Virus record (IMG/VR): IMGVR_UViG_3300009177_000032
Coordinates: 14,673-78,672 of that record
DNA: 64,000 bases
DNA from: a virus
Reading direction: 5' to 3' (one strand)
In this document: one piece after another, positions 2,502-38,000 of the stretch
Position numbering within the stretch: position 1 is the first letter of the stretch
How the letters are laid out: each line of letters begins with the position of its first letter
Notes under the pieces: generated by a model
What the model was told of the DNA's origin: nothing
The model's input: the letters and a program-made list of their open reading frames with translations, nothing else
Databases searched by the model: none
Program-made: the position numbers and the translations under genes

Positions 2502-3814
2502 CGAGCCAAAATGGTTAGAGCGCCCTGCGCATCGTTTGCATCCGACGCCTTAATGTAATCTTCGCTGATATCGATGGACGTGCATCCTCGTCCGAGCTCA
2601 ACGCATGCCCTGGCTGTCACCATTGTGCCGCCAAAGGGATCCAGCACCAAGCAAGGCTTTGACTCCCGGTCGCATGTGCATCCAGGGTCCCACCTGAGCG
2701 TTTTTCTCTCGCGCATGCCCGCCAGGATCCGCCGCTTCACGTCGCTCGCGTTCTGGACCTTGTTGCCGTCGTAATCCTTCTTTGCCTGGCCCTCGTAATT
2801 GCCGAGCATGTCGCCGCCGCATTGGCGTTGATGCTCAATGTCGGGCTCTCCCAATTCGACGATCCGCCGGCGAGGAGCTCCGCACTCCATACAGCAACCT
2901 CCCTCGGAGGTGCACGCCTCGATTAGCGGCCGTACTATCGATTTTGGGTAGCTCGCGAAATGGTTGATCGTAGTCCCCTTCGGGTTGACTACCAGGGCCA
3001 GCGGGTCGCCGTCCTCATCGCCGAGGAGCCCCTCCCACGACTGCATGAACAAATCCGTATTACGGAAATTACGGCGCGTGACCAGATAATCGCTTGTTGC
3101 ATCCTGGAAGGAAGGGTTTTGCTTTACCCCGATTTGAGCCAGGGCGGCCTTGGGATTGGTCCGGCGCCTCCGTCGGTTATTGTCGTGAGTCTGTCGAGTC
3201 GGGAAAACTGCCGCGCGTGGGTGAGTGTTGTCTGACGCCCGGACCGTAACCGCGTCCCGGTCGTAGTAGTAGTATCGGCCTTTTGTGAACATGAAAAAGT
3301 ACTCGAGCGCGTTGACGGGTCGGTCCTTAACGCTCTCCGGCATGCAATTTCGTTTGATCCATGGGCACATCGAGCGGAGGATCCACCCGCCTTGCTGCAA
3401 ATCCATGGCAACCCTCTGCGGCAGTAGGAGCATTTCCTTAGGCTTCAGTCCAAGGGGGTCGGCTGGCCGGAACACGCCATTTGACGGGTGATCCTCGTCT
3501 CGGCCAAGGCGGGATCCCTCGGGATCATACATGCGTCTGGTGCCGGCGGTGTACCGGTCGCCCAGGTTGATCCACAAAACGCCATCGTCACGGAGTACCC
3601 GCCACACCTCGGTAAAGACTTCCCGAATGTGGAGAATATAAAGCTCGAGGGTTTTCTCAGTTCCGATTTCCTTGCTCTTGTCGGGGTGCCCCGCCGGCAG
3701 GTATGAGCGCAAACCCCAGTAGGGCGGGCTCGTGACGCAAAGGTGAAAGGACTTTTCGGGGAGCGTCTTTAGGACGGCCCTGGCATCGCCCTGAATTTTT
3801 TGAGGGATGATCAC
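2498..3814 (-). CDS. DNA methyltransferase, N4C/N6A beta class
   Basis: TSPPY catalytic motif at N-terminus, HFASYP, C-terminal VLDPFGGT SAM-binding motif; Cys-rich insertion (CCMEC...CTC). Confidence 0.9.
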   Translation of the reverse strand: MIIPQKIQGDARAVLKTLPEKSFHLCVTSPPYWGLRSYLPAGHPDKSKEIGTEKTLELYILHIREVFTEVWRVLRDDGVLWINLGDRYTAGTRRMYDPEGSRLGRDEDHPSNGVFRPADPLGLKPKEMLLLPQRVAMDLQQGGWILRSMCPWIKRNCMPESVKDRPVNALEYFFMFTKGRYYYYDRDAVTVRASDNTHPRAAVFPTRQTHDNNRRRRRTNPKAALAQIGVKQNPSFQDATSDYLVTRRNFRNTDLFMQSWEGLLGDEDGDPLALVVNPKGTTINHFASYPKSIVRPLIEACTSEGGCCMECGAPRRRIVELGEPDIEHQRQCGGDMLGNYEGQAKKDYDGNKVQNASDVKRRILAGMRERKTLRWDPGCTCDRESKPCLVLDPFGGTMVTARACVELGRGCTSIDISEDYIKASDANDAQGALTILAR

Positions 3815-3820
3815 GATGCT

Positions 3821-4024
3821 TTACGTCAGTAACCTGCTGTAAAACCTGTGGCGCCGATAATCAGTAGCACAGCGGATCGCGCCACGGGCGCATCGTTGGC
3901 CGCAGTCCACACAGATCGGCCTTTTCTTCAGCCTCTGCTTAATCTGGCTGAGGACTTTGAACAGCTTCCAGTTCCTCCGCTTGTGAGCGACGACCATGGC
4001 TTCTTTGACTTGGGCTAGAGTCAT
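3821..4024 (-). CDS. small Cys-containing hypothetical protein
   Basis: 67 aa, CVDC...C...C. Confidence 0.5.
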   Translation of the reverse strand: MTLAQVKEAMVVAHKRRNWKLFKVLSQIKQRLKKRPICVDCGQRCARGAIRCATDYRRHRFYSRLLT

Positions 4025-4402
4025 TTAGTCGTCCGTTCCAGGCAGATGCTTGCGAAAACCCTCAGGCGCAAATGAGGTGCCGATATACCGAAAGAATCGA
4101 GAGCCATATCCTGGCGCCGTGCCCTGCATCTGCATTGGACTGGTACCGAGGTGCACGAAGTTATGCCAGTGGATGAGGTCGTCGCTGTATTGCAAGGTCC
4201 ACACAGCGGGGGTGTTAGTTGGGTAACGCAGCTCTGGCAAGTTTTTGTGCACCGGGCCGTTTGTGATGTTGGCAGCGTTGAGCGGGCTGAACAGGAGTTT
4301 AGGCACCGGCGGAGGTGCGGCTGGACGTGACGCGACTGCTGCTGGCTTTTGTCCAGCACACGCAGACAGCAACAGTAGGAGGATGCAATCAAACTTTCTC
4401 AT
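4025..4402 (-). CDS. putative lipoprotein
   Basis: MRKFDCILLLLLSAC lipobox, Pro-rich linker, C-terminal WTLQYSDDLIHW...SRFFRY motif. Confidence 0.7.
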   Translation of the reverse strand: MRKFDCILLLLLSACAGQKPAAVASRPAAPPPVPKLLFSPLNAANITNGPVHKNLPELRYPTNTPAVWTLQYSDDLIHWHNFVHLGTSPMQMQGTAPGYGSRFFRYIGTSFAPEGFRKHLPGTDD

Positions 4403-4650
4403 TCTCTGGCCCTAGCGCCTGGCAAGGCGGGCGGGGATGACTGCAATCGCCACTGCAACACCCCATTGGTGCCGCTGTCAGAGCGTTTGATCAAGGTCAG
4501 ATTTGTGCACAGCATGACTTCTGCAACGTAGGTGTTGGTTTCGATGACGGCCCGCATGCGAAAGTAATTGCTGCCATTCTCACGCTTGAAGTCTGACGTG
4601 TTAACCCAGTTGGTTACGATCAGGGTGATCAGGAAAAGGTTGGTGTTCAT
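4399..4650 (-). CDS. hypothetical protein with hydrophobic N-terminus
   Basis: ATG 4650 (MNTNLFLITLIVTNW...), Thr/Asn-rich; overlaps both neighbours by ATGA. Confidence 0.55.
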   Translation of the reverse strand: MNTNLFLITLIVTNWVNTSDFKRENGSNYFRMRAVIETNTYVAEVMLCTNLTLIKRSDSGTNGVLQWRLQSSPPALPGARARE

Positions 4651-4844
4651 TGGTAGCCTCCCGCCTCTTGTTCGAGCGTGGCAATCGTTCGCATCAACTC
4701 CATTGTGGTGCATGGATAATTACTGAGCATTTGCGACAACTCGACTCGGTGCGCGTTGGCGATGCGCTCCAGGTTGCATTCCTTGATTGGTCGATGAGCG
4801 CAGCCAGTTGAGGCAGTGAGGAGGAGTATGATTAGTTTGTTCAT
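4647..4844 (-). CDS. small putative lipoprotein
   Basis: MNKLIILLLTASTGC lipobox-like signal. Confidence 0.55.
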   Translation of the reverse strand: MNKLIILLLTASTGCAHRPIKECNLERIANAHRVELSQMLSNYPCTTMELMRTIATLEQEAGGYQ

Positions 4845-4854
4845 CGGTTGACGA

Positions 4855-5094
4855 TCAGTCGGTTGGGTTCACTCCGTAAATTATGGAGGGGTTGAATTTA
4901 CGGGAGCAGCCAAACGGTCTGCCGATCAGGGTTGAAATGGTTTGGCAGGTGCTGCACGGGCGCTCGCTCCATTGGTGAGGGTCGGCCTCTATCAGTTCTA
5001 GCGCGGTTTGGCACATTAAGCGAGCGGCAGCGCGTATTGTAGATTCAAGGACCTTCTCGCTTTCCAGCGACGGGGAGTGATTCTCGTTTGCCAT
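4855..5094 (-). CDS. MANEN cassette 4 protein (CxxC)
   Basis: 79 aa, starts MANENHSP; DPHQWSERPCSTC motif. Confidence 0.75.
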   Translation of the reverse strand: MANENHSPSLESEKVLESTIRAAARLMCQTALELIEADPHQWSERPCSTCQTISTLIGRPFGCSRKFNPSIIYGVNPTD

Positions 5095-5101
5095 AGGTCA
5101 G

Positions 5102-5464
5102 TCAGGTGGCGAGCGCGGTGCAGGCTATCTTTCTAACTTCCGTTAATCTCGCTCGCAAATCAACCAGACCAAACACTCGAAACGCTGCATCGTCGTTTCC
5201 GAGTTGGTCGCATTGCCTCAGAGCCTCAGCGAGTCGCTCACAGAACACACAGGAAAATTGTTCGCAGCCTTGCGCCACATGCTCATTGTCAACTGGTGGT
5301 GCTTTTGTGGGATCATGGCGTCCTGCGATCTTCTGACGTATTTCCTCAATGCCATTCCAGAGGTCTCGCCAGTCCTCAACCGTCCAGTCTTTAGCATCTA
5401 TCGGGATTTTGGATTTCATCTCTTTGATCGTGCAAAATTGGTTGAATTGTTCCGATTCACTCAT
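5102..5464 (-). CDS. MANEN cassette 3 main ORF
   Basis: MSESEQF... starts in ATGA overlap with the stop of mini-ORF MANENQPPLRKNCYS* (5461-5508). Confidence 0.7.
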   Translation of the reverse strand: MSESEQFNQFCTIKEMKSKIPIDAKDWTVEDWRDLWNGIEEIRQKIAGRHDPTKAPPVDNEHVAQGCEQFSCVFCERLAEALRQCDQLGNDDAAFRVFGLVDLRARLTEVRKIACTALAT

Positions 5465-5516
5465 GAGTAGCAATTCTTTCTTAGAGGGGGTTGATTCTCG
5501 TTTGCCATAGGTTTAG

Positions 5517-5771
5517 TCAGTTGATAATAACGTAGGCGTCCAGCCATTCGAGCGGTGGATCGCCTTCAAAATTCACCCGGCCATCTATGGAAAGCGTGGC
5601 AATTTCAGGACACTGAAGGTCCTTGTTATCATCACAGGCGGGGCCGAGTATCGCCTCTCTCGTTGCTTTAGCGCGGTCCGCCAGATTGTCGAACACTCGG
5701 ATGACGGGACTGCCTCCCGCTTCGGCGTGTTCAATTAGGACGTATTTCAGGGGGTGATTCTCGTTTGCCAT
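5517..5771 (-). CDS. MANEN cassette 2 protein
   Basis: 84 aa, starts MANENHP. Confidence 0.75.
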   Translation of the reverse strand: MANENHPLKYVLIEHAEAGGSPVIRVFDNLADRAKATREAILGPACDDNKDLQCPEIATLSIDGRVNFEGDPPLEWLDAYVIIN

Positions 5772-5778
5772 AGGTCAG

Positions 5779-6033
5779 TCAGTCCTTTCCACCAGCCGCA
5801 TGAAACTCGTTCCACCATGTATTCAATCGGCAGCTCAGGTTTCCCACTTCTCCATTGGTGATATCAATACTCTCGCGCAACGGGGCTAGAATTTTTTCCG
5901 CTGATCGCAATTCAACGCGCCATGTCTCTAGGCGTTTTTCAGCGTCTTTTTTTCGGGCAATAAGTTCCTGCAACGTGTCACCGTTACGGCAGGCGAAAGT
6001 GTTTTTATTCGGGGGTTTATTCTCGTTTGCCAT
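5779..6033 (-). CDS. MANEN cassette 1 protein (coiled coil)
   Basis: 84 aa, starts MANENKPP. Confidence 0.75.
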   Translation of the reverse strand: MANENKPPNKNTFACRNGDTLQELIARKKDAEKRLETWRVELRSAEKILAPLRESIDITNGEVGNLSCRLNTWWNEFHAAGGKD

Positions 6034-6035
6034 AA

Positions 6036-6509
6036 TTAAAACGGAGGTGGCCCCGTTACAGTCGCTCTATTGTTATCGTTGCCCCCTCTTGACCGGGAGC
6101 GCACAGCTCGCTTTTTACTACCAGTTCCCGGAAGGAGGTCCAACAATCGTCGCACGGCAGTAACGTAGCAATCCGCGAGCGTGGACAAGCAGCCATCCGG
6201 ATCTCGACGCCGATAGTCTGAAAAACGGAGCGTAATTGTGACTCGATAAGGGATATAGCCTTTTTCATCCACTCCATGTGCTCCGGCAGCGTGATCGGCC
6301 TGGCCATCGCTTTTAGGCCCCGCTTGCGATACCAGATCTCCCCTTTGTAGGCCATCACTGTGGCGCTCTTGCTGTCGATCCACGCAAACGCCCGCTTGCC
6401 CGTCTTGAAGGATGGGATCGGGCCGATGCCCTTTAGCTCGAGGATGATTGGGGGCATAGGGCACTCCGTCGATCCAAACAATTCCGCTTGTGTCTTTGTC
6501 ATAGGGCAT
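6036..6509 (-). CDS. RusA-like protein, frame B (central catalytic segment), overlapping frame A
   Basis: YRVTITLRFSDYRRRDPDGCLSTLADC resembles the RusA V.I.....RrD.DN..K...D.L core. Confidence 0.5.
   Translation of the reverse strand: MPYDKDTSGIVWIDGVPYAPNHPRAKGHRPDPILQDGQAGVCVDRQQERHSDGLQRGDLVSQAGPKSDGQADHAAGAHGVDEKGYIPYRVTITLRFSDYRRRDPDGCLSTLADCYVTAVRRLLDLLPGTGSKKRAVRSRSRGGNDNNRATVTGPPPF
6056..6502 (-). CDS. RusA-like Holliday junction resolvase, frame A (N- and C-terminal parts)
   Basis: ILELKGIGPIPSFK.. N-terminal strand/loop and C-terminal DD.W...ELVVK......EGATITIERL typical of RusA; lacks the central catalytic segment. Confidence 0.6.
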   Translation of the reverse strand: MTKTQAELFGSTECPMPPIILELKGIGPIPSFKTGKRAFAWIDSKSATVMAYKGEIWYRKRGLKAMARPITLPEHMEWMKKAISLIESQLRSVFQTIGVEIRMAACPRSRIATLLPCDDCWTSFRELVVKSELCAPGQEGATITIERL

Positions 6510-6512
6510 GGC

Positions 6513-7106
6513 TTAACCTGCGCCCATGGCCCTCAAGCCGGACTCATAGGCAGTTTTGAGCTTAATGAATTCCTCGTGCGTCCCGCCAGCGTCAGGGTGA
6601 AGCCTTTTCGAGAGCTGCCGGTAAGACTCCTGCAGTGTCGTGATGTTGATCTCGTTTGGGTCCCGAAAGCCGAACACCTTCCACCACTCCCGCACCTCCG
6701 GCGCAGTCGCCCCGGCCGGCAACTGCTTAAACCCGGTGAACATCGCCTTGATCATGTGCTTGGCTCCCCATCGTTCCATCCCGCGCATTGCCTCGACCGT
6801 CAACGCTATTGCCTGGATGTTGTGAGCGATTCTGTTCCAGCGGTCGCAAGGGATGGCCATTTGCGTATTGTCCCACTCGAAGTAGGCGCAAACGCCCGGA
6901 TCTTTCGGGTTGTCCTGGCCGAGCGCGGCATTGCTCGAGAGCACGATGCTTTTCGCGCCCATGCGTGCGAGCTCGCGCTTGAGGTTATTGAGGGCGCCTT
7001 GAGTGTCCGTCTTGAAGCTGCCCGATTCCCTGCGGAACGGGTCAGTCTTTGGCCAGCCCGGAGGCCATGCTAGAGGATAGGCGGTCGGTGTTTGGATCGT
7101 GCTCAT
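6513..7106 (-). CDS. J-domain (DnaJ-like) protein
   Basis: C-terminal YRQLSKRLHPDAGG with HPD motif; N-terminal AYPLAWPPGW and CDRW...N..AI..T..A.R...RWG of the phage J-protein family. Confidence 0.9.
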   Translation of the reverse strand: MSTIQTPTAYPLAWPPGWPKTDPFRRESGSFKTDTQGALNNLKRELARMGAKSIVLSSNAALGQDNPKDPGVCAYFEWDNTQMAIPCDRWNRIAHNIQAIALTVEAMRGMERWGAKHMIKAMFTGFKQLPAGATAPEVREWWKVFGFRDPNEINITTLQESYRQLSKRLHPDAGGTHEEFIKLKTAYESGLRAMGAG

Positions 7107-7632
7107 TGGGATGGTAGTTAGTTATGCGAAAACTGAGTTTCCGCCCGTTCCTGTAACCGTAAGGATAGAAGGCCACACCCAACGCCTTTACCAGCGTCAG
7201 ATCGTTTTGCGGTACGTCGAGGACTACATAGAGGTGATCGCCTTTGTCCTCGTAAACGACCTTGATAAGCCGGTCGTAAATGAGATTCAGGAATTCACGT
7301 ATCATCGTCGTGAGCTCTCCGCCGCCTTCCCATTGCCGGTTTGGCTGAAATGGTTTTCGCTCTGGCTCTGCCTCGCCGCGGAAACTCTCTCGAATCTCGA
7401 CCTTGACCTCGATGCCAATTCGCCGGCCCATGCGCTCGGCTACCTGGCGGATCGCCATGATGGTTTTGCCCTGCTTACCGATCATGATTCTCAGGTCCTG
7501 GGTTTCGGGCTCGACTGTGACCTCGAGGAGGTTCGTCGCGAAACGCTCTTTGAAGTTGATCCTATCGGGAGTCGACGAGTAAGACCGGAACAGGGAGATA
7601 AGAACCTTCGTTATCGGGTGTTTTTCGTGCAT
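7042..7632 (-). CDS. KhpA-like KH-domain RNA-binding protein
   Basis: EVTVEPETQDLRIMIGKQGKTIMAIR..V.VEI is the type II KH GxxG loop as in KhpA; C-terminal half looks like a second degenerate KH. Confidence 0.75.
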   Translation of the reverse strand: MHEKHPITKVLISLFRSYSSTPDRINFKERFATNLLEVTVEPETQDLRIMIGKQGKTIMAIRQVAERMGRRIGIEVKVEIRESFRGEAEPERKPFQPNRQWEGGGELTTMIREFLNLIYDRLIKVVYEDKGDHLYVVLDVPQNDLTLVKALGVAFYPYGYRNGRKLSFRITNYHPNEHDPNTDRLSSSMASGLAKD

Positions 7633-7646
7633 TGCTGGCCGCGGTT

Positions 7647-9089
7647 TTAGTCGTTGTGCCGGCGGTAGTCAAGATGTTCCTGTTCGGGGACGTCCTCATC
7701 GCTGATTTTTGCCGTGGCTTCAAACCGCGTTACCGACTTCCAGAACGTCAGCCCGATTTTCCCCGTCGGTCCGTTCCTCTGCTTGGCCACATCCAGCGCA
7801 ATGGGCACCACATTGCCGTCCACTTGATCCTCGCTCCCCTCTTTGCGCGATAATAGCATTACCGTGTCAGCGTCCTGCTCAAGACTGCCGCTTTCGCGGA
7901 GGTCTGCGAGCTGGGGCATCCCCTTACGGCCATCGATGCCACGCTTGAGTTGCGAAAGCGCGATCACGGGGATGCGCAGCTCCTTACAAAGTGCCTTTAG
8001 ACCGGCGGAGATTTCCGAGACTTCGCGCTCCCGGTTATCAGGTCGCTTCCCGTTGATTGAGGCGCTCAGGAGCTGAATGTAATCCACAACAAGCAGCTTA
8101 ATATCGTGCTGGATGACCATTCTCCGCGCTCGAGCTCGCAACTCCATAATGCTGAGCCCCGAGACGTCGTCTACAAACAGATGAGAAGCTGCGATCTTGC
8201 CGGCAGCTCCGGTGAGCTTGGGAAAATCGTTCTGCGCCATGAAGCCATCGCGGATGTTCCTTAGGCTGACTCGCGCTCGAGAGCAAAGCATCCTCAACAC
8301 CAGCGAATCTACCGTCATTTCGAGCGAAAAGACTCCCACCGGAAGCTGCTGATCGATCGTAACGTGCTCGACAATGTTCATCGCGAGCGAGGTCTTTCCC
8401 ATGCTCGGGCGAGCGGCCAAAATGTAGTACTCCCCTGGCACAAGCCCGCCGGTTAATTTGTCCAAGTCCTGAAAACCGGTCCCCAGTCCGATTAAGGCTC
8501 CGGCGCGCGTCAGAAACTCCTCAATCCTGTCCATTGATTCATGCACAACCTGCCGGATCGGCCTCAGTTGCTGTGCTGCCCCGATCTGGCGGACGTCCAT
8601 GATATCGCGCTCGACCAAATCCAACGCATTGGACGTGTCCGGTTCGTCGTAGAGGCGCGATACCGCCTCGGTACAAGCCACGATCATTTTGCGCCGACGG
8701 TAGTGCTCGAGCATCACATCGAGAAACGTTTCCAATGCGTCCGCAGTTGGCGCCAGATCGGGAAGCTGCCCTATGTAACTCATCCCGCCGACCTGCTCGA
8801 GGAGCTGTTTGTCTTTCAGGTAATTCGCCAGGGTAACCACGTAGAGCTTTACCCCCGCGTTGACGAGTTCCTCCATAGCCATCCAGATCGACCGGTGCCG
8901 CATATCGAAGAAAGCCTCAGTCGCGTTCCTTCCCAATTTCTCGATCACCAGACTCACGCCCTCCGCCGATCTGGTTTCATCAATGAGAATGCAACCGAGG
9001 GCTGATTGCTCAGCCTCAATGCTGTGCGGGGGCAATCGATCGACGGCGGGGGCTTGCCGGCGCTGTCGCCTAAGATCCGGTTCACTCAT
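7647..9089 (-). CDS. dnaB: replicative DNA helicase
   Basis: PPHSIEAEQS, AARPSMGKT, FSLEM, VVDYIQL, LSQL.R, LRESGSLEQDAD, KQRNGPTG. Confidence 0.97.
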   Translation of the reverse strand: MSEPDLRRQRRQAPAVDRLPPHSIEAEQSALGCILIDETRSAEGVSLVIEKLGRNATEAFFDMRHRSIWMAMEELVNAGVKLYVVTLANYLKDKQLLEQVGGMSYIGQLPDLAPTADALETFLDVMLEHYRRRKMIVACTEAVSRLYDEPDTSNALDLVERDIMDVRQIGAAQQLRPIRQVVHESMDRIEEFLTRAGALIGLGTGFQDLDKLTGGLVPGEYYILAARPSMGKTSLAMNIVEHVTIDQQLPVGVFSLEMTVDSLVLRMLCSRARVSLRNIRDGFMAQNDFPKLTGAAGKIAASHLFVDDVSGLSIMELRARARRMVIQHDIKLLVVDYIQLLSASINGKRPDNREREVSEISAGLKALCKELRIPVIALSQLKRGIDGRKGMPQLADLRESGSLEQDADTVMLLSRKEGSEDQVDGNVVPIALDVAKQRNGPTGKIGLTFWKSVTRFEATAKISDEDVPEQEHLDYRRHND

Positions 9090-10173
9090 TCAATGAAATG
9101 CGCCCGGAAAAGAAGCTCAATAAAAGCTGTCGCGCCCTGGACCGCCACAACTGCGTTGCCGGTGCACCTGAGCTGATCGATTCTGCCCTCGTCCAAAACC
9201 ATGGCATGCCCATCAGCCAACACGCGAAAGCCGGGTTTAACCGCGGGCGAGAGCCCTTCGGAGCCTTGGAGGATTTCGGGCCATCGGGGGTCTTTTGGCC
9301 CTGGGGCGAAAATAAGAGAACAGCTTCCGTCAATGGTCGGGAGTTGCCGTAATCTTTTAGCGTCTCGCCGCTCCGGTAATCCCTGCTTTGGCACGTCGGC
9401 CAATTCTCCGTCTCCAGGCTGAGGGTCGTTTTGTTGCGCGCTGCCTTCCTTCCGCGGCCGCCCGCCTGCTCGCCGTCCATCGTGGTGACCGTCGTCCAGT
9501 TGGCTACCTGTGCCGGCAGCGCTGCCCCCGTGTTGCTCCGATCCTCCTTCGCAAAGTCCGGACCGCTCGCCCCGTCCCATCCCTTCGGGGTCGCCCATTG
9601 GCTGGCTTGGTCCTGCAGCGTGACCTGCATTTTGTTCCCCGTTTCGTGTTGAGCTCTCTCGACCGCCTCCTGGCTCCGCGTCCTGCTCCCGCCTGTCGGG
9701 GCATCCGGGGTCGCCCACTTCTCCGCCTGGCCGGTCAAGCTGTCCCGCTCCATTCCCTCTATCCCGTGATCCCGAGTGAATGCGCCCGCCTCGTGCGATC
9801 GAGGGGTTTGCCAATTCGCCGCCTCCTCCTGCAGTTGGCGTCCAGCCTTGCCGCATCCATGCTGATACCTGTTGTTTCCACCAGAGTCCATCCGGGCCGT
9901 TGCGGTAGGCCAACACAAAGACTCTCTCTCGCTCGTGTGACGCTTTAACGTCGTCCGCAAAGATAAAGACAGGCTCGACGATCTCGTAATCCAGTCGCGA
10001 TAGTTCTCCTCCAAAAGCCATGAATGGATAATTGATTTTTCCTGTTCGCTTGTCCCTAAGCCCTCTAACCCAAGCTGGCACGTTTTCGAGGAGCACCAGG
10101 GCGGGGCAACACTCCTCGATGAGTCGAAGGCAATGCCTAGCAGGTCCTTCTCCGTCACCAAATGCTCGAGCAT
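9082..10173 (-). CDS. C5-MTase beta polypeptide in alternative frame (six W-x-T repeats plus motif IX); start uncertain, frame open from 10503
   Basis: WPTATARMD, WQTPRSHE, WATPDA, WATPKGWD, WTTVTTMD, WPTCQSRD repeats and RLNPAFACWLMGMPWFWT. Confidence 0.7.
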   Translation of the reverse strand: MLEHLVTEKDLLGIAFDSSRSVAPPWCSSKTCQLGLEGLGTSEQEKSIIHSWLLEENYRDWITRSSSLSLSLRTTLKRHTSERESLCWPTATARMDSGGNNRYQHGCGKAGRQLQEEAANWQTPRSHEAGAFTRDHGIEGMERDSLTGQAEKWATPDAPTGGSRTRSQEAVERAQHETGNKMQVTLQDQASQWATPKGWDGASGPDFAKEDRSNTGAALPAQVANWTTVTTMDGEQAGGRGRKAARNKTTLSLETENWPTCQSRDYRSGETLKDYGNSRPLTEAVLLFSPQGQKTPDGPKSSKAPKGSRPRLNPAFACWLMGMPWFWTRAESISSGAPATQLWRSRARQLLLSFFSGRISLNE

Positions 10174-12559: not shown

Positions 12560-13555
12560 TTATCGGATGAGCCCGTATTTGGTTAGTGTCCACTCCGTAG
12601 GAGAGGTTGTGCCAAAGCCGTTGACGACCCCCGGGCCGGCATCGTCCCAACTTGGCCAAGCGTTTTCCTTTAGGCATTGGCAATAGCGCTTGAGCGCCAT
12701 CACATACTTGATCCGACCGATCGCGACGAAGTTATCGCCTACGGTCCGGCGGGCCTGCTGGAAAGGAAACTCATTTTCCTGAATGACGTGATGAAAAACC
12801 CATCTCTCTTGCGGCCGGGATGCGGTGTAGATATCAATGCTCATTGCCGCCTGGGCGTCGTAGTTCTGCCGGTCGATCACCTTCTGCCACTCATCCGGGC
12901 TCGCGTTGCGGGCCGTCTTGAAGTCGGCCAGGCTGTTTGAAAACTGGCCTTTTATCGACGGGACAATGTCGATCAGGCACTTGAGCGGGACCGCTATCTT
13001 TGTCTCGCGGTCGACGTAGGTCGCAATGCACATGACCTGATATTGCGCATCGGCTGTGAGCGCGCCGATCCAGGCGTCCTCCTTGAGGATTTTAAGGGCC
13101 TGGCGCGCGTCCTCGTAATCCGCCCGCCTGACAATCTGTTTGCCGGCTTTCCTGGCCTCCTTCGTCCACTCCTTCGCCTCTTTGCACAGCGGTTGCCAGG
13201 GGACTAAGTCGCCGTCTCGGGCCTCGCCCTCTTTCACGATCGACATTGTCTTTGTCGCCGTGACCGTCTCAGGCTGAACCGCAAAGTTTCCGTCAAACCG
13301 GCCCGAGGGGCACGTAAAGAGAGCGTCCATCAGCGTGCCCCATTCGGTCGCGTCGGTATCTTTGAACACGTAGCCGCGGTACCACCGTTGCGGATTTGAG
13401 TCGAACAGCATGAGCTCGCTCCGGCTCATCACAAAGTTTGGGTCGCCCCGCTTTATGGCGGGGTCCTGGCGGAGGTAAATCTCGGTCGGGACGTCGGTCC
13501 CAATGATTTTACCGTCCTCGAGTTTTACCGGATCAAAAAAGTCTGAGGCATTCAT
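12560..13555 (-). CDS. PD-(D/E)XK exonuclease, RecE/ExoVIII-like
   Basis: SRSEL, GTLMDAL, KCLIDI, LADFKT, YDAQAA. Confidence 0.8.
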   Translation of the reverse strand: MNASDFFDPVKLEDGKIIGTDVPTEIYLRQDPAIKRGDPNFVMSRSELMLFDSNPQRWYRGYVFKDTDATEWGTLMDALFTCPSGRFDGNFAVQPETVTATKTMSIVKEGEARDGDLVPWQPLCKEAKEWTKEARKAGKQIVRRADYEDARQALKILKEDAWIGALTADAQYQVMCIATYVDRETKIAVPLKCLIDIVPSIKGQFSNSLADFKTARNASPDEWQKVIDRQNYDAQAAMSIDIYTASRPQERWVFHHVIQENEFPFQQARRTVGDNFVAIGRIKYVMALKRYCQCLKENAWPSWDDAGPGVVNGFGTTSPTEWTLTKYGLIR

Positions 13556-28269: not shown

Positions 28270-29060
28270 GACTCTGTTGCTGCGGTTACGTAGCTCCCCC
28301 AAAGGTTGGCCATCCGGAGGTATTCCTCCGCAACATCGCCAAGTTCAAGCCAAAGACCGATCTGATCCTTTACTCTGAGCATCCCTGGCCCGACACGTTC
28401 CGGTTGAAGGCGAGCCCGGAGGTGTTCCGGCCCATGACGTTCCCCGACGGGAAGCCTAACAAGTTCTGCATGCAAAACGGCGCCTTCTTTACCGGTGCCA
28501 AGATTGCACGCGATCGAGGTTACACCCACATGATTACCCTCGAGGATGACGTCCGTGTAGGGCGGCCGGACTGGGATCAATATATTTGGAACGAGTATTT
28601 TTCGCATGGCAAACCCCTGCTTGCGGCCGGGACACTGGCAACCTACAACCCCTGCAACTGGAGCCCGGAGGCGAGCAAGTTGTGGGCGGAGCTCCTGCGC
28701 GTGAACACCCGGAAGAATTTCCCGATTGCTACCTACGGTTGGCTCGGCGCGGGGATAAAGGGCAAGACCGCGGTGTTCCCTAATGGAGCCCTGGCTATCT
28801 ACGATCTAAACTGGTTGGGCAAATTCTTCGACCTGACCAACACCCAAGCGACGGCCACGTCTCACGACGCATGGGACTTTGCGATCGGATTCAAGATTTG
28901 GGACACGTTCGAGGAAATGTCCTATGACCTTGTGGCCAACCTGCACACAGTCGGCTCATGGTATCGGGACCTGGTGACCGATGAGGAGGAGCGCAAGCGG
29001 ATGCTGGTAGACGGGGAGGTTTGCGCCGTGCATCACATAAAGACAGATTGGGAGCCATGA
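28266..29060 (+). CDS. glycosyltransferase-like protein (GT-A-like)
   Basis: hydrophobic strand plus LEDD, NGALAIY, AWD, C-terminal VHHIK. Confidence 0.5.
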   Translation: MRLCCCGYVAPPKVGHPEVFLRNIAKFKPKTDLILYSEHPWPDTFRLKASPEVFRPMTFPDGKPNKFCMQNGAFFTGAKIARDRGYTHMITLEDDVRVGRPDWDQYIWNEYFSHGKPLLAAGTLATYNPCNWSPEASKLWAELLRVNTRKNFPIATYGWLGAGIKGKTAVFPNGALAIYDLNWLGKFFDLTNTQATATSHDAWDFAIGFKIWDTFEEMSYDLVANLHTVGSWYRDLVTDEEERKRMLVDGEVCAVHHIKTDWEP

Positions 29061-30043
29061 ACTATTTCGAGCAATACAACCCTGGCGAGTGCAAGGGAAT
29101 AACGCCGGATATCCGGCTCAAGGAAGCGGTGGAGCTCGCGCTCGAATTTTTTGAACAGAAGCCGCTAGGCCAGCCCTACAAAGAGGGCCAGAGACGGATC
29201 ATTGGCGAGCTTGTGAAAGTTTACGGCCCCAGGAAGCTGGTCAAAGAGATTGACCGCGAAGCGCTGGTCAAGCTGGTGAGGGTGTATCAGGCGCGCAACG
29301 TCGAGGTGTATAATCAGCTCATTCACATTAAGCGCTTTTTCGAACTCATGCGCCAGGAGGGCGTCATCAACATTAACCCGGTGCAATACCGGCGCCTCCC
29401 CTTCACGATCCGGCCCTACGCGGTGAAACCGATAATCAGCGAGGAGCAGTACCGCCGATTGTTGAGCGCCAGTATGTCGCCGGATTTTACCGAGGGTTGG
29501 CCGATTGTGATTATGGGGGCGTGGGAAACCGGGCTCCGCGGCTGCGACATAGCTACGCTCCAATGGGACGCATGCGAGGACGGCAGCTACGTGGACTTCG
29601 TCAATGAGATGATTGTGACTCGCCCTTCCAAAATGCGGAGGAGGAAACAGCGATTGGAAATACCGATCGCTGGCGAGTACCTCGAGGCGTTGTGCGAGCT
29701 GCAGCAATCGAGGGGAGACAGCAAGTTTGTGACACCCTGGCTTGCCCATAAGTTTAATTTCGGGACCCGTCCCTCGCATTTTTGGGATGAGTTCAAAAAG
29801 ATTGCCGTCCGGTGCGGCATGGACGCCTACACGTTCCACTGTTTCCGGCATAGCTTTGTGACACGGTGCCTCCGAGCTGGGGTAAGCCCGGTAGTGATTG
29901 GGAGCCTGACGGGCCAGAGCCTGAAGATGATCCAGCACTATAGCCGAGTCGATAACAGCGATAAGATTAGCGCGCTGGATGCCATTCGAAAGGCAACCCA
30001 CGCCGAGCAGGTTAAACGCCTCGGGTATCAGCCCCCCGTCTAA
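29057..30043 (+). CDS. tyrosine recombinase/integrase
   Basis: TGLRGCDI, K, FHCFRHSF, LTGQS, HY catalytic set (second His replaced by Q). Confidence 0.9.
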   Translation: MNYFEQYNPGECKGITPDIRLKEAVELALEFFEQKPLGQPYKEGQRRIIGELVKVYGPRKLVKEIDREALVKLVRVYQARNVEVYNQLIHIKRFFELMRQEGVININPVQYRRLPFTIRPYAVKPIISEEQYRRLLSASMSPDFTEGWPIVIMGAWETGLRGCDIATLQWDACEDGSYVDFVNEMIVTRPSKMRRRKQRLEIPIAGEYLEALCELQQSRGDSKFVTPWLAHKFNFGTRPSHFWDEFKKIAVRCGMDAYTFHCFRHSFVTRCLRAGVSPVVIGSLTGQSLKMIQHYSRVDNSDKISALDAIRKATHAEQVKRLGYQPPV

Positions 30044-34475: not shown

Positions 34476-35086
34476 ACAAAACCGCTGAATTCGTGAACAT
34501 CGCCCGCAAGCTGGATATCGACCCGCTAGTGATTTATGACCTCGGGTCATTCGATGCCGCTCAGGCGGTGGAGCTCGCCATTGCTTTCCCCAAAGCTCGA
34601 GTCGTTGCGCTCGAGGCCGACCCCTACAACATCCCGAAGTGCCTGGTCAATGCGAAGGGCCATCGAAATATCACTATCGTCAATGGTGCCCTGGCTCCGC
34701 TCGGCACTCGTCCGCTCATCCACTTCAACCGCTCAGTCGGCACAAACGACCAATGCGGGAGCCTCTTGGTGCCGACGGACCTCAAGGATATGCCGGTCGA
34801 GTGTATTGTGGTGCCGGCCGTGACAGCCGCGGACCTCGACAGCTTCTTCGGCTTGCCAACTTTGCTCTGGATGGACGTCCAAGGATCCGAATGGAACTAT
34901 TTCCTGGGTTTTCCCTTCCGTCCGCGGCTTGTGTGGTTAGAGGTCGCCTATGACCCCTACTACCACGACCAGCCGCATAAGGATGAGCTCGTCCGCAAGA
35001 TGGCCGATATTGGTTACAAGCCAATCTTTGAGGAGGTCGGGGTCCCCGGTAGATGGGGAGACGTCTGTTTTTGGCTTGGGTACTAA
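34472..35086 (+). CDS. FkbM-family methyltransferase
   Basis: IYDLGS, VALEADP, GSLL, LWMDVQGSE, WLEV. Confidence 0.85.
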   Translation: MNKTAEFVNIARKLDIDPLVIYDLGSFDAAQAVELAIAFPKARVVALEADPYNIPKCLVNAKGHRNITIVNGALAPLGTRPLIHFNRSVGTNDQCGSLLVPTDLKDMPVECIVVPAVTAADLDSFFGLPTLLWMDVQGSEWNYFLGFPFRPRLVWLEVAYDPYYHDQPHKDELVRKMADIGYKPIFEEVGVPGRWGDVCFWLGY

Positions 35087-38000
35087 TGCGCTCGCGGCCT
35101 GAGTGACCTAATCCCGCCTGCACCAGTCCTCCGGAGAGCTCCGGCCCTTCCACCTGGGCGCCGAATTGACGGACCTCGTGGACCGCGGAGGCTCCTCGCC
35201 GGCAATCGCACCCCGCGCCTGAGATTGGGAAGCCGAGCAGCTCCACGTAACGGAGCTCCCCCGCCTGCAGCTATGCTCGGCACCTGCGCATTTTGCGGGG
35301 TGACATACCTGCTCGCGCTCCCGGTCGGCACCTGGCCATTTCCCGGCGCCGTTTTGGATAGCGCTTCCATTGCCGAGGTGTCGACCCCGACGCTCTGCAA
35401 AGCCGTCTGGTTCGCCTGATTGAAGGCTGTGCGGATATCGCTGAGGGTTGCGTCCGGTCCGAGGGCCTCGAGCGACTGCTTGAAATTCTGGCCTCGAGCG
35501 ACTGAGTAGTCAGCAAGCTCCGTCTTGTTCATCGGGCGGTACTCGCCATCGATTGGATAGCCTTTGGCTGAATCAACCGCGGGCGGCCGATATCCTGAAT
35601 TGAGCAGCGCCGCATAAGGTGCGAGCGCCTTAGCTTGTTCGGTGTCCACTATGCCAGGGTAGATCCCCATCACCCCGCCGCCGGCTGTCAGCGTTTGGAT
35701 CCAGCGCTGGACCGCGTCCGGTGTCCCGACAGGGTCGCCGAGGATGTTGACGGCCCGCGCCTGGCTCGTCGGCAGCGGGACGAGGAAGTCCCAAAAGCCC
35801 GAGAGCTTGGAGTCCATATTCACACCAGCTCCGCGCGCAAACTCTTGGTAAGCTGGCAACCCGAGGATGTTGGGCGAGACGTAGGCCGCAGCCATCTTCG
35901 AGACGTTGGGGACCCCATATTCAGTCCCGCTCTGCACCACGCCAGAGAATGCTTTGCCGGAGATAAGCGTCCCCCAAAGGCTTTGAGCTGCGATCGAGGC
36001 AATGTCGAGCGCGCCGATGGGCGGGATTTTACCGGGAGCAATCCCCTTCTTTTCGGCTTCAGCATTCAGCTTCTCTTGCGCCTTCTCGCGCGCCATGACC
36101 GCCTCGAGAATTGCCCCAGCTGTCGCCGCATACGGCGCAAAGGCCGAGGCGAGCCCGACCGTCAAAGACATTGGGATGAACTCGTGATCGTTGAGGACGA
36201 GCTCAATCGTCCCCGATCGGTGACCTTGCGCCTCCCAAAGTTCACGCTCTGCTTTGTTCTTCGGCCCCCTCAGGAATACCCGGATGAGGCCCGCGAACAC
36301 CATGCCCATGATGAGCGCGCCGAGGATGCTGCCCACAATGGCCTGCACCCGTCTTTGATACCGGTCCTCCTCACTCCAGAACCATGGGGACTCCTCGTCT
36401 CCGCCCATGCCAGGAACCTTGATTGCTCCCTGGGCGTAGAGCGGCGTGAAAAAGAGCGAGTAATTGATGCCGGTGCCGACTGCGTTGGCAAAGCGTGCGA
36501 AGCTGAAAGGCAAGCCGATGTTCGCCGCAAACCCTGACGCCATCTTGCCGGCGCCAGCGACAAGCCCGCCAAGCCCGTGGGTCACGCGCTCTTGCCAGGC
36601 GATCGTACGACGCAGCTTCTCGTTTTTCGCACGGAAGTCATCCGCCGGAAGCCCAAGCGCCCGGATATCCTCGTAGATATTTGAGCGGACCAAGTTCCAA
36701 GCAGCCTCGTTGACCTCGTTGGGGCCGGCATTCTCGCCCAACACCTGGCGGGCCAGCGCCATGGCCGCATCCCGCTTCTCTTTGAGGTTGCCAAGTATCC
36801 GGTCTTTGTTGGCCGCAATCTCGGCTTTGTCCATGCCGCGCTCCCGCAACTCGCCTTCAATCTGATTGGCGAGCTCCTGAAACTCCGCCGGAACACCCTG
36901 GAAATTATCGACGGCTTGAACGAACCGGAGGCTAAACCGGGCGAGCCCCAGGAGGCGCAACACCGCGGCTTTGCCGTGCTGACCCTTTTCCGAAGCTGCC
37001 TTTGCCTCGGCTTCCATTCGTTCGAACATCAACACGCCCGTAACCAAACGGTCCACATTTCGACTCTGGCCACGACCAGCCAAGGCCGAGCGGGCGGACG
37101 CTATAGCCGGCCTAAGTGCTTTGAGCGCTCGTCCGTACCCGTCGGCCAAAGCAACATTGAGGTCGCGCCACGCCGACTCTCTGCTCCCCTCGGCTTGCCG
37201 CATCCAGGCAACACCGGCCGCCCTGGTAGGGATGTGCCAAAAGAGTTGGCTGATGATGTGTGTCGGGAGGCGGAGGGCAAACCCGACCTTGAGCAGCATA
37301 TTGGCTACCTCAAACTCGTTGATGGCGTCGGCAATGTTCCGCCGGCTGTTCCACGCATTGCGCCAGGATTGCACGCTGAATCCGGGGAACACGATCGGGC
37401 GAGTCATCTTCGCCCAAAGCGCGCTTATATCCTTCGAGAGAGTGCCACGTCTCTCCTCGGTGAGAGCGTCTCGAGCAGCCTGGGCCCGCCGAAGCGCTTC
37501 CGCGTCGTTTCCGGCCTGAGCCCGTTCCTCGGGGGTGAGTTCCTGCAGCTTCTGGATCTGAGCCGCCAAGTCCTTGAACCGCTTAACCTGAGCCTCCGTG
37601 GGAGGTGTCCATCCTTTTGCGGCCGCAATTTGGCGCAAGACGTCGGTCGAGTCGAAAATGCCGGCATTAGCAGCCGCCACAATCTTATGCCAGAGCGGTT
37701 TCCCCGGGCGCGCAAACTTTCTTTCCTTGGGTGTAAGCCCGTCTGTCGCACGCTTAATTGCCTGGACCCGTGCCTTTTCGAACAGGTTTTGATAGGCCGC
37801 TTCGAACAAGGCCGCAGCCCGGTCAGCCACTTCGGCGGGCACCCCATACCGGTTGATGAGGATTTGGCTGAAGTTTTGGGCAATCTGAGCCTGCCGATAG
37901 AAGGGGGTGTCTAGAGCCTGGCGGACCAGATCCGAGGCTTTCGGCATCACCCTTTGGATAATGCTCTTGTTCGCCACGGTCTGGACGTACTCGACAAGGT

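What the first reader, a model, noticed from the sequence alone, without database searches (positions are those of the whole stretch)
4855..6034. Repeat-delimited array of interchangeable 'MANEN' gene cassettes
Seen: four consecutive, otherwise unrelated units (about 240-415 nt) all begin ATGGCAAACGAGAAT-mAm-CCCC (MANEN..P) and all end in ..CTGA. Internal junctions therefore read CTGACTGACCT-ATGGCAAACGAGAATCA (29 nt identical at 5077-5105 and 5754-5782; variant at 5492-5520). The first unit has only the start half of the repeat and the last ends with only the stop half (GACTGA, 4855-4860). This is the pattern expected if each unit entered as a circle by crossover within the repeat. The repeat itself supplies stop codon, spacer, start codon and first five codons, so any captured ORF is expressed. 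Inference: an integron-like but attC-free gene capture/shuffling platform, driven by the phage Sak4/RecE-like system (12.5-16.5 kb) or the tyrosine recombinase (29 kb).
Basis: partly seen in the sequence, partly recalled or inferred. Interest (0 to 1): 0.85.

Follow-up and report, generated by a model that had tools for sequence, protein, structure and literature searches.

The report
Shared start-joint shuffles phage mini-genes
Four unrelated small genes in this phage are joined by the same ~30-base stop/start joint, and related phages carry different genes behind that joint, so it marks where accessory genes are swapped, much as already described for T4-type phages.

Summary
ATGGCAAACGAGAAT occurs exactly four times in the 78.7-kb phage genome, all on the minus strand at 5094, 5508, 5771 and 6033. 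Each copy starts a small ORF and follows a CTGA(CTGA)CCT stop motif.

The same joint occurs in three other uncultured phage lineages with otherwise unrelated backbones. It always sits upstream of one conserved 83-aa "MNTNLF" anchor gene. It fronts eight different, mutually unrelated ORF bodies, in arrays of 4, 2, 2 and 1. Two contigs 94-98% identical differ by exactly one cassette, and the breakpoint lies inside 22 identical bases of the joint. One array ends in a decayed joint.

Cassettes B and D are ORFans. Cassette C's body belongs to a wider phage protein family that never carries the leader. In C the leader is out of frame, as a 15-codon uORF ending in an ATGA overlap.

The joint has no hairpin, promoter or Shine-Dalgarno sequence, and the lineages share no recombinase. 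So this is not integron-like site-specific capture. It is homology-driven cassette shuffling at a portable stop/restart joint, a translation-start variant of PeSL or boundary-sequence shuffling.

This scan has already noted similar stop/start-joint arrays in other phage DNA.

The parts
6012..6044 (-). Joint J1, the array's 5' boundary. It has only the start half of the repeat (ATG + MANEN codons + AAACCCCC). The upstream part is backbone sequence with a weak hairpin at 6040-6057.
5779..6033 (-). Cassette A, 84 aa, MANENKPP..., probably helical or coiled-coil, GC 0.49. No Pfam or PHROG family.
5750..5783 (-). Joint J2: stop of A (TGA) + CTGACCT + ATG + MANEN codons + CACCCCC. It is the best match to the junction profile.
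5517..5771 (-). Cassette B, 84 aa, MANENHP.... ORFan: only itself among 5.8 billion proteins.
5487..5522 (-). Joint J3, variant stop half CTGACTAAACCT.
5461..5508 (-). MANEN leader of unit C, read as a 15-codon uORF (MANENQPPLRKNCYS). Its TGA overlaps the ATG of ORF C (ATGA). One more C in the C5 run would fuse leader and body.
5102..5464 (-). Cassette C body, 120 aa from MSESEQ. It belongs to a family of small phage proteins with the motif DWTVEDWRDLWNGI...RH, none of which starts with MANEN.
5073..5105 (-). Joint J4: stop of C + CTGACCT + ATG + MANEN codons + CACTCCCC.
4855..5094 (-). Cassette D, 79 aa, MANENHSP.... ORFan. Its 3' end lies in a stable hairpin.
4823..4865 (-). Array 3' boundary: stop half GACTGA followed by a possible decayed joint that now forms the start of the 65-aa lipoprotein gene. 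The resemblance to the joint consensus is weak (22 of 2000 shuffles score as well). It shares GACTGATCGnCAA with the clear relic in L022.
4647..4844 (-). 65-aa putative lipoprotein gene between the array and the anchor. It is absent from the relatives.
4399..4650 (-). Anchor gene, 83 aa, MNTNLFLITLIVTNW..., with a hydrophobic N-terminus. It is the one fixed neighbour of every MANEN array (80-88% nt identity between lineages).

Best explanation
This is a hyperplastic accessory-gene array in the early (replication/recombination) region of a temperate, uncultured phage. Unrelated small ORFs are strung together by a conserved joint of about 27-34 nt: (A)CTGA(CTGA)CCT, then ATG GCA AAC GAG AAT, then usually (C/A)A-CCCC.

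The joint does two things. (1) Inferred: it is a portable translation stop/restart site. The preceding ORF ends at a TGA 3-8 nt before the ATG. The region is unstructured and A-rich and has no Shine-Dalgarno sequence or promoter, so whatever lies behind it is probably translated by termination-reinitiation. (2) Shown by comparison: it is the stretch of identity at which cassettes are deleted, inserted and exchanged, within one genome and between co-infecting phages with unrelated backbones. The likely route is general or short-homology recombination (phage RecE-like exonuclease with an annealing partner, host RecA, or replication slippage), not a dedicated site-specific recombinase. Repeated exchange also keeps the copies identical.

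New bodies are probably first joined behind a leader by illegitimate events. Cassette C looks like such a capture: it has its own ATG, belongs to its own family, and its leader is left as an out-of-frame uORF. The cassettes themselves are most likely dispensable host-takeover or anti-defence mini-proteins; this is an inference only.
For: There are four exact copies and none elsewhere in the genome.

The same joint occurs in G001 (IMG/VR 3300010401_000040, a complete genome with direct terminal repeats), L020, and L017/L021/L022. It is always 5' of small ORFs and upstream of the anchor gene. It fronts eight distinct bodies with no overlap between lineages.

The backbones are unrelated. G000 and G001 share only the anchor, a tail-fibre piece and one other protein. 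The L022 type has a DnaB only about 50% identical, in opposite orientation to the cassettes.

L020 is 94-98% identical to G001 and collinear with it, but lacks cassette G. Its single joint combines the left flank of G001's first joint with the right flank of G001's second joint, so the crossover lies within 22 shared bases. Protein G is recorded on 5 contigs, against 10 each for H and the anchor.

In L022 a decayed joint with the ATG destroyed directly follows the last cassette; 0 of 2000 shuffles align as well.

All 15 leader bases, including 4 synonymous sites, are identical in all 8 independent joints. The CCT before the ATG is kept in 7 of the 8 and the fuller CTGACCT in 5 of the 8. In contrast, 22-31% of same-residue codons differ between lineages in the adjacent anchor gene.

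The joints fold less stably than shuffled controls in two of four cases (z +1.2 and +1.5). No promoter-like site was found.

C's body has about 50 relatives, including five on other viral contigs. All have their own starts and none has the leader.

A RecE-like exonuclease is present in the phage.
Against: No direct evidence of ongoing recombination was obtained.

Only four array variants were recovered, and only one clean indel. Whether that indel was an insertion or a deletion is unknown.

Misassembly across a repeat cannot be formally excluded. It is unlikely for a 22-nt repeat, and the contig counts agree with a real polymorphism.

Translation by reinitiation is inferred from anatomy only. 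Shine-Dalgarno use is low across the whole phage (21 of 88 crude gene starts against 14% at random positions), so its absence at the joint is not distinctive.

The conserved MANEN peptide could have a function of its own.

The functions of the cassettes are unknown.
Confidence: 0.68

Rival explanations
1. N-terminal tag. MANEN(x)P is a targeting, processing or stability signal shared by diverse effector proteins, like the capsid-targeting sequence of T4 internal proteins. Recombination at its coding sequence is a by-product.
For: Seven of eight bodies are in frame with the leader, and six of these continue as [K/H/Q]-[P/S]-x after MANEN. [quoted passage not shown]
Against: In cassette C the leader is out of frame with the body. 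The 120-aa product is recorded on 7 contigs, so this state is reproducible. Conservation extends into non-coding bases upstream of the ATG (CCT in 7 of 8 joints, CTGACCT in 5 of 8), and all synonymous sites are invariant. Cassette E shares only five residues. The array sits among replication genes, not head genes.
Confidence: 0.12
2. Translational operator. The joint is the binding site of a repressor protein or small RNA that co-regulates all the cassettes, as T4 RegA acts on the start regions of early mRNAs (from my own knowledge, not checked here). Identity is kept by that constraint.
For: Conservation at nucleotide level is centred on the start codon, and the RNA is unstructured and accessible. 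A KH-domain RNA-binding protein is encoded 1 kb upstream at 7042-7632.
Against: G001 carries the same joint but not the KH protein or any other shared candidate regulator. A host factor would therefore be needed. Regulation alone does not explain how unrelated ORFs acquired the same joint or why indels break inside it.
Confidence: 0.1
3. Integron-like site-specific capture. A dedicated recombinase (the phage tyrosine integrase or a host enzyme) recognises the repeat and inserts or excises circular cassettes.
For: The cassettes are promoterless, same-strand and repeat-delimited. A tyrosine integrase is present at 29021-30043.
Against: The integrase is 23 kb away. The carriers of the same joint share no recombinase. 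The joint has no inverted repeats or hairpin and no attI- or attC-like asymmetry. The homology boundaries are ragged on both sides, which is typical of homologous rather than site-specific exchange.
Confidence: 0.06
4. Diverged tandem paralogues that kept only their N-termini.
For: The units have similar sizes (71-98 aa for seven of eight) and a shared start.
Against: There is no similarity beyond residues 1-8 in any of the pairs. C belongs to a separate family with its own start. Nucleotide identity of the leader together with upstream non-coding bases is the opposite of what old duplicates would show.
Confidence: 0.02

Closest known systems
PeSLs (promoter-early stem-loops) of T4-type phages (Arbiol et al. 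2010, PMC2839356; Comeau et al. 2014, PMC4122927)
   Same: Short repeated motifs lie between small ORFan genes in hyperplastic regions. They span the upstream stop to the downstream start. Indels and replacements between related phages break at the motifs, and homologous recombination between nearby copies is the proposed mechanism (shown there to give mini-circles).
   Different: PeSLs are intergenic promoter plus stem-loop terminator plus Shine-Dalgarno modules, present in about 50 copies per genome. The joint here has no promoter, hairpin or Shine-Dalgarno sequence. It is mostly coding (start plus 5-7 codons). It has only 1-4 copies, in one array tied to one anchor gene, and it is shared by phages with unrelated backbones.
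Conserved boundary ('linker') sequences in lambdoid phage mosaicism (Susskind & Botstein 1978; Clark et al. 2001; as discussed in PMC3029335)
   Same: A short conserved sequence at module junctions allows homologous recombination between otherwise unrelated genomes. The ~50-bp repeat deletion in Cluster I mycobacteriophages is the same kind of event.
   Different: Those are single junctions between functional modules. They are not a tandem array of mini-gene cassettes with a shared start codon and N-terminus.
T-even internal-protein locus with its capsid-targeting sequence (Repoila et al. 1994, as cited in PMC3012670)
   Same: Diverse, unrelated small proteins share only a short conserved N-terminal sequence, in a polymorphic locus.
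   Different: The capsid-targeting sequence is a functional peptide cleaved in the prohead. Here a peptide role is untested, one cassette is out of frame, and conservation extends upstream of the ATG.
Start-associated sequences (SAS) of Cluster K mycobacteriophages (Pope et al. 2011, PMC3203893)
   Same: An asymmetric repeat sits at translation starts of non-structural genes of different families, sometimes containing the upstream stop codon. It is specific to phages.
   Different: SAS is 13 bp, lies upstream of the ATG, contains a Shine-Dalgarno core and is scattered over half the genome. No role in shuffling has been shown for it.
Integron cassette arrays
   Same: Promoterless, same-orientation, repeat-delimited cassettes of unrelated genes whose content varies between relatives.
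   Different: No IntI, attI or attC hairpins, and no Pc promoter identified. The repeat is part of the coding sequence.

Membership tests
Integron | Adjacent IntI-type tyrosine recombinase with an attI site | tested here: not met
   The only integrase (PF00589) is at 29021-30043, 23 kb away on the other strand. G001 carries the same joints but shares no recombinase with this phage.
Integron | attC sites: imperfect inverted repeats that fold as hairpins at each cassette end | tested here: not met
   The joints have no inverted repeats. As RNA they fold no better than shuffled controls (z from -0.7 to +1.5). DNA folding was not run separately.
PeSL regulatory cassettes | Sigma-70-type early promoter inside the motif | tested here: not met
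   No promoter-like site at any joint. One site was found in 3800-9200, elsewhere, against 2.4 expected. This is a consensus scan only and the host's promoter type is unknown.
PeSL regulatory cassettes | Stem-loop terminator or attenuator inside the motif | tested here: not met
   Only the backbone side of J1 has a weak hairpin, at 6040-6057.
PeSL regulatory cassettes | Indels or replacements between related phages that break at the motif | tested here: met
   G001 and L020 differ by one cassette, with the crossover inside 22 shared bases. The arrays differ completely between lineages.
PeSL regulatory cassettes | Mini-circles formed by recombination between neighbouring motifs | not testable with these tools
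Boundary-sequence (linker) recombination | A short sequence conserved at junctions between otherwise non-homologous segments in different phages | tested here: met
   The joints are 97-100% identical between G000 and G001, while the only other DNA matches between the two genomes are the anchor gene and two segments of the tail-fibre gene.
T4-type capsid-targeting sequence proteins | Conserved N-terminal peptide on all members, removed by the prohead protease, with the proteins packaged in the virion | tested here: inconclusive
   The MANEN peptide is present in 7 of 8 bodies and out of frame in C. Processing and packaging cannot be tested here.
Start-associated sequences (Cluster K) | 13-bp motif with a Shine-Dalgarno core 3-7 bp upstream of many gene starts across the non-structural half of the genome | tested here: not met
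   The joint has no Shine-Dalgarno core, and there are only four copies, all in one array.

The most novel reading that the evidence does not exclude
The joint is a self-sufficient 'expression adaptor' that works as a recombinase-free analogue of an integron. Cassettes loop out as circles by recombination between two joints, travel between co-infecting unrelated phages, and re-enter at any joint next to the anchor gene. Once in place they are translated at once by stop-restart coupling. This would give soil phages a shared, exchangeable pool of mini-genes, possibly anti-defence genes.
Probability: 0.2. Interest if true: 0.7.

Novelty: new variant of a known kind. Interest (0 to 1): 0.45.

Why it matters
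Most mosaic boundaries in phage genomes show no trace of how they arose. Here the recombination substrate is visible. The same ~30 bases are kept letter for letter in phages with unrelated backbones, exactly where small accessory genes are gained and lost. That supports the old 'linker' model of modular phage evolution in a new form, with a translation stop/start joint instead of a promoter-terminator cassette. It also offers a simple handle for finding fast-evolving accessory genes, which are candidates for host takeover or anti-defence, in metagenomic phages. It is not a new class of genetic element. PeSLs and boundary sequences are precedents, and this scan has already met comparable joints in other phages.

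Tried and rejected
1. Chance matches to the 18-19-mer were discarded after reading their context: L005, L007, L019, L023-L025, L027, L028, L030, L031, and L026/L029 (a Pyrinomonadaceae MAG, where the match lies in a stretch unrelated to the array).
2. A scan for synonymous variants of the leader (degenerate pattern) in IMG/VR found only G001.
3. GenBank phages gave no match to 3800-6600 in distant mode.
4. Relatives found through the phrog_9210 protein (L008-L010) lack the array and the joint.
5. Scans for cassette E and for C alone found nothing in IMG/VR.
6. Pfam and PHROGs gave nothing for A-D, the anchor or the lipoproteins.
7. The AlphaFold model of B had no alignment behind it and was poor (pLDDT 55), so no fold search was made. 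The ESM Atlas search for C gave no usable hit.
So no further array variants could be fetched from the contigs known to hold the anchor gene and cassette proteins, and no read-level test for circles or deletions was possible.
9. A profile search for extra degenerate joints found only the L022 relic, at a non-significant E-value. A gapped alignment that included the stop half made it significant.
10. Repoila et al. 1994 is not held in the library, so it is cited only through PMC3012670.

Full report
**1. The observation**

All genes here are on the minus strand. The 15-mer ATGGCAAACGAGAAT occurs exactly four times in the window, starting at 6033, 5771, 5508 and 5094. No shuffle of the window reached the observed count of six matches even with three mismatches allowed. 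It occurs nowhere else in the whole 78,672-bp virus record that holds the window, which CheckV rates 100% complete. The repeat finder extends the copies to a 33-nt family spaced 414, 263 and 262 nt apart.

Aligned on the coding strand, the joint reads (A)CTGA(CTGA)CCT, then ATG GCA AAC GAG AAT, then usually CA/AA-N-CCCC.
- The ORF in front ends at a TGA inside the left half, 3-8 nt before the ATG.
- The first copy has only the right half.
- After the last ORF only GACTGA remains.

The ORFs are A (5779-6033, 84 aa), B (5517-5771, 84 aa) and D (4855-5094, 79 aa).

Its MANEN leader runs for only 15 codons (5461-5508). Its TGA overlaps the ATG of a 120-aa ORF (5102-5464) in another frame, as an ATGA overlap. 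The body's frame is open back through the leader, and one extra C in the C5 run would fuse the two. The exact 120-aa product is recorded on 7 contigs, so the out-of-frame state is probably real and not a sequencing slip.

**2. Relatives**

The joint was searched as DNA in IMG/VR, JGI metagenomes and GTDB genomes. Apart from chance hits in AT-rich or unrelated DNA, it appears in three other lineages:
- G001, IMG/VR 3300010401_000040, 56.5 kb with 123-bp terminal repeats.
- L020, a contig 94-98% identical to G001.
- The L017/L021/L022 type.

The array always lies directly upstream of one conserved 83-aa gene, MNTNLFLITLIVTNW..., here at 4399-4650. I call this the anchor. The arrays are:

| Lineage | Order |
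|---|---|
| Window (G000) | A-B-C-D-lipoprotein-anchor |
| L022 type | E-F-relic-75-aa gene-anchor |
| G001 | G-H-anchor |
| L020 | H-anchor |

The eight bodies share nothing beyond residues 1-8.

The backbones are unrelated:
- G000 and G001 share only the anchor, a tail-fibre piece and one other protein.
- The L022 type has a DnaB only about 50% identical, in opposite orientation to the cassettes.
- The upstream flank differs in each lineage: a 148/157-aa double ORF here, a 164-aa gene in L022, and a 106-aa gene in G001.

**3. Evidence that the joint is where exchange happens**

(a) G001 and L020 are collinear, but L020 lacks cassette G. The two blast segments overlap by 31 nt in L020. L020's single joint has the left flank of G001's first joint and the right flank of G001's second joint. 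The crossover therefore lies within the 22 bases the two joints share. Protein G is seen on 5 contigs, against 10 each for H and the anchor. That fits a real presence/absence polymorphism.

(b) In L022 the last cassette is followed at once by a decayed joint: the stop half is intact, three bases including part of the ATG are lost, and there are four substitutions. None of 2000 shuffles aligns as well. The end of the window's own array has a weaker resemblance (22 of 2000 shuffles). It shares GACTGATCGnCAA with the L022 relic.

(c) All 15 leader bases are identical in all 8 independent joints. The CCT before the ATG is kept in 7 of the 8 and the fuller CTGACCT in 5 of the 8. In the adjacent anchor gene, 22-31% of codons for the same residue differ between lineages. 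The identity is therefore maintained at the nucleotide level, by selection or by repeated exchange.

(d) Homology ends raggedly on both sides. This is expected of homologous recombination and not of site-specific recombination.

**4. What the joint is not**

- It has no inverted repeat.
- As RNA it folds no better than shuffled controls, with z from -0.7 to +1.5.
- It has no promoter-like site.
- It has no Shine-Dalgarno core. Shine-Dalgarno use is low throughout this phage, so that absence is not distinctive.
- No recombinase is shared by the carriers. The window's integrase is at 29021-30043. The proteins shared with G001 are not recombinases. G001 has at most a sub-threshold AAA_24 (Sak4-family) protein nearby.
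- The window does encode a RecE-like exonuclease (12560-13555; phrog_412, DUF3799) next to an AAA_23 ATPase.

**5. The cargo**

B and D are ORFans among 5.8 billion proteins.

C's body belongs to a family of about 50 representative small proteins with the motif DWTVEDWRDLWNGI..I+.KIAARH. The family has no Pfam model. It is found on at least five other viral contigs, each with its own start and none with the leader. C is therefore not a paralogue of its neighbours. It looks like a gene taken from the wider phage pool and set behind a leader, expressed through the ATGA overlap.

A and C have lower GC (0.49-0.50) than the window as a whole (0.58).

The single-sequence model of B was too poor to use.

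**6. Mechanism**

Shown: points 1-5 above.

Inferred:
- The joint is a portable stop/restart translation site.
- Its copies are the substrate for homologous or short-homology recombination that deletes, inserts and swaps cassettes within a genome and between co-infecting phages. This also homogenises the copies.
- New bodies first get behind a leader by illegitimate joining.
- Circles are a natural by-product of recombination between direct repeats, as shown for PeSLs (PMC2839356). They were not tested here.

Rivals, none fully excluded:
- A functional MANEN peptide tag, like the T4 capsid-targeting sequence (PMC3012670). It is weakened by C, by the upstream non-coding conservation and by the invariant synonymous sites.
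- A translational operator. It needs a host factor, since no phage factor is shared.
- Site-specific capture. It lacks both enzyme and site structure.

**7. Comparison with known systems**

- It works like PeSL-mediated modular shuffling in T4-type phages (PMC2839356, PMC4122927).
- It also works like the conserved boundary sequences proposed for lambdoid mosaicism (PMC3029335).
- It differs in being a mostly coding stop/start joint without promoter, stem-loop or Shine-Dalgarno sequence. It is confined to one array tied to one anchor gene, and it is shared across unrelated backbones.
- It resembles the Cluster K start-associated sequences only in sitting at gene starts (PMC3203893).
- It fails the defining tests for an integron.

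Earlier notes of this scan describe comparable stop/start-joint arrays in other phages. These notes are unchecked AI leads. I reached the PeSL and capsid-targeting comparison before reading them.

**8. Verdict**

The feature is real. It is a new variant of a known kind.

Noticed in passing
window 5102-5464 (-); proteins P0007-P0057; loci L032-L036: Cassette C defines an undescribed family of small phage proteins with an invariant core, P..DW..DW..L...R/H (consensus DWTVEDWRDLxxGIxxIKxKIAARH). The search found 51 representatives at E<=1e-3, including one 1429-aa protein that matches in 15 stretches. There is no Pfam model. C's C-terminal half (residues 76-120) matches a different set of longer coiled-coil proteins (P0018, P0051).
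   Followed up: partly
window 5485-5492 (-), the C5 run after the leader of unit C: Leader and body of C are one base out of register at a run of five C. The body's frame is open back through the leader, so a -1 slip or a C6 variant would give a 135-aa MANEN fusion. This could be a recent indel, or low-level frameshifting could occur. Neither was tested.
   Followed up: no
window 4845-4930 (-): A stable hairpin covers the last ~25 codons and the stop of cassette D (-21.6 kcal/mol, z -2.6, 3 of 200 shuffles fold as well). No U-tract follows it. It may be an mRNA 3' stabiliser or an attenuator at the end of the array.
   Followed up: partly
Neither has a RusA hit, or any other significant hit, in Pfam or PHROGs.
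   Followed up: partly
window 51467-51834 (-) and G001 34573-34941: The end of the 1216-aa putative tail-fibre protein is 86% identical in DNA (81% in protein) to part of an 854-aa protein of the otherwise unrelated phage G001. The two phages therefore probably share a host, which would allow co-infection and exchange of the MANEN module.
   Followed up: no
L022 8628-8648: A decayed MANEN joint (ATG lost) lies directly after the last cassette. It is followed by about 70 nt of non-coding, C/A-rich sequence and then a 75-aa gene without the leader.
   Followed up: yes
G001 versus L020: Besides the cassette indel, the two near-identical phages differ by two gene-sized replacements. One is inside the 277/280-aa gene downstream of the anchor. 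The other replaces the gene upstream of the 72-aa MTLNEY gene. No MANEN joint lies at either, so other mosaic mechanisms act in the same region.
   Followed up: no
window 35083-48054 (-): A single ORF of 4323 aa, very large for a 79-kb phage. It was not examined.
   Followed up: no
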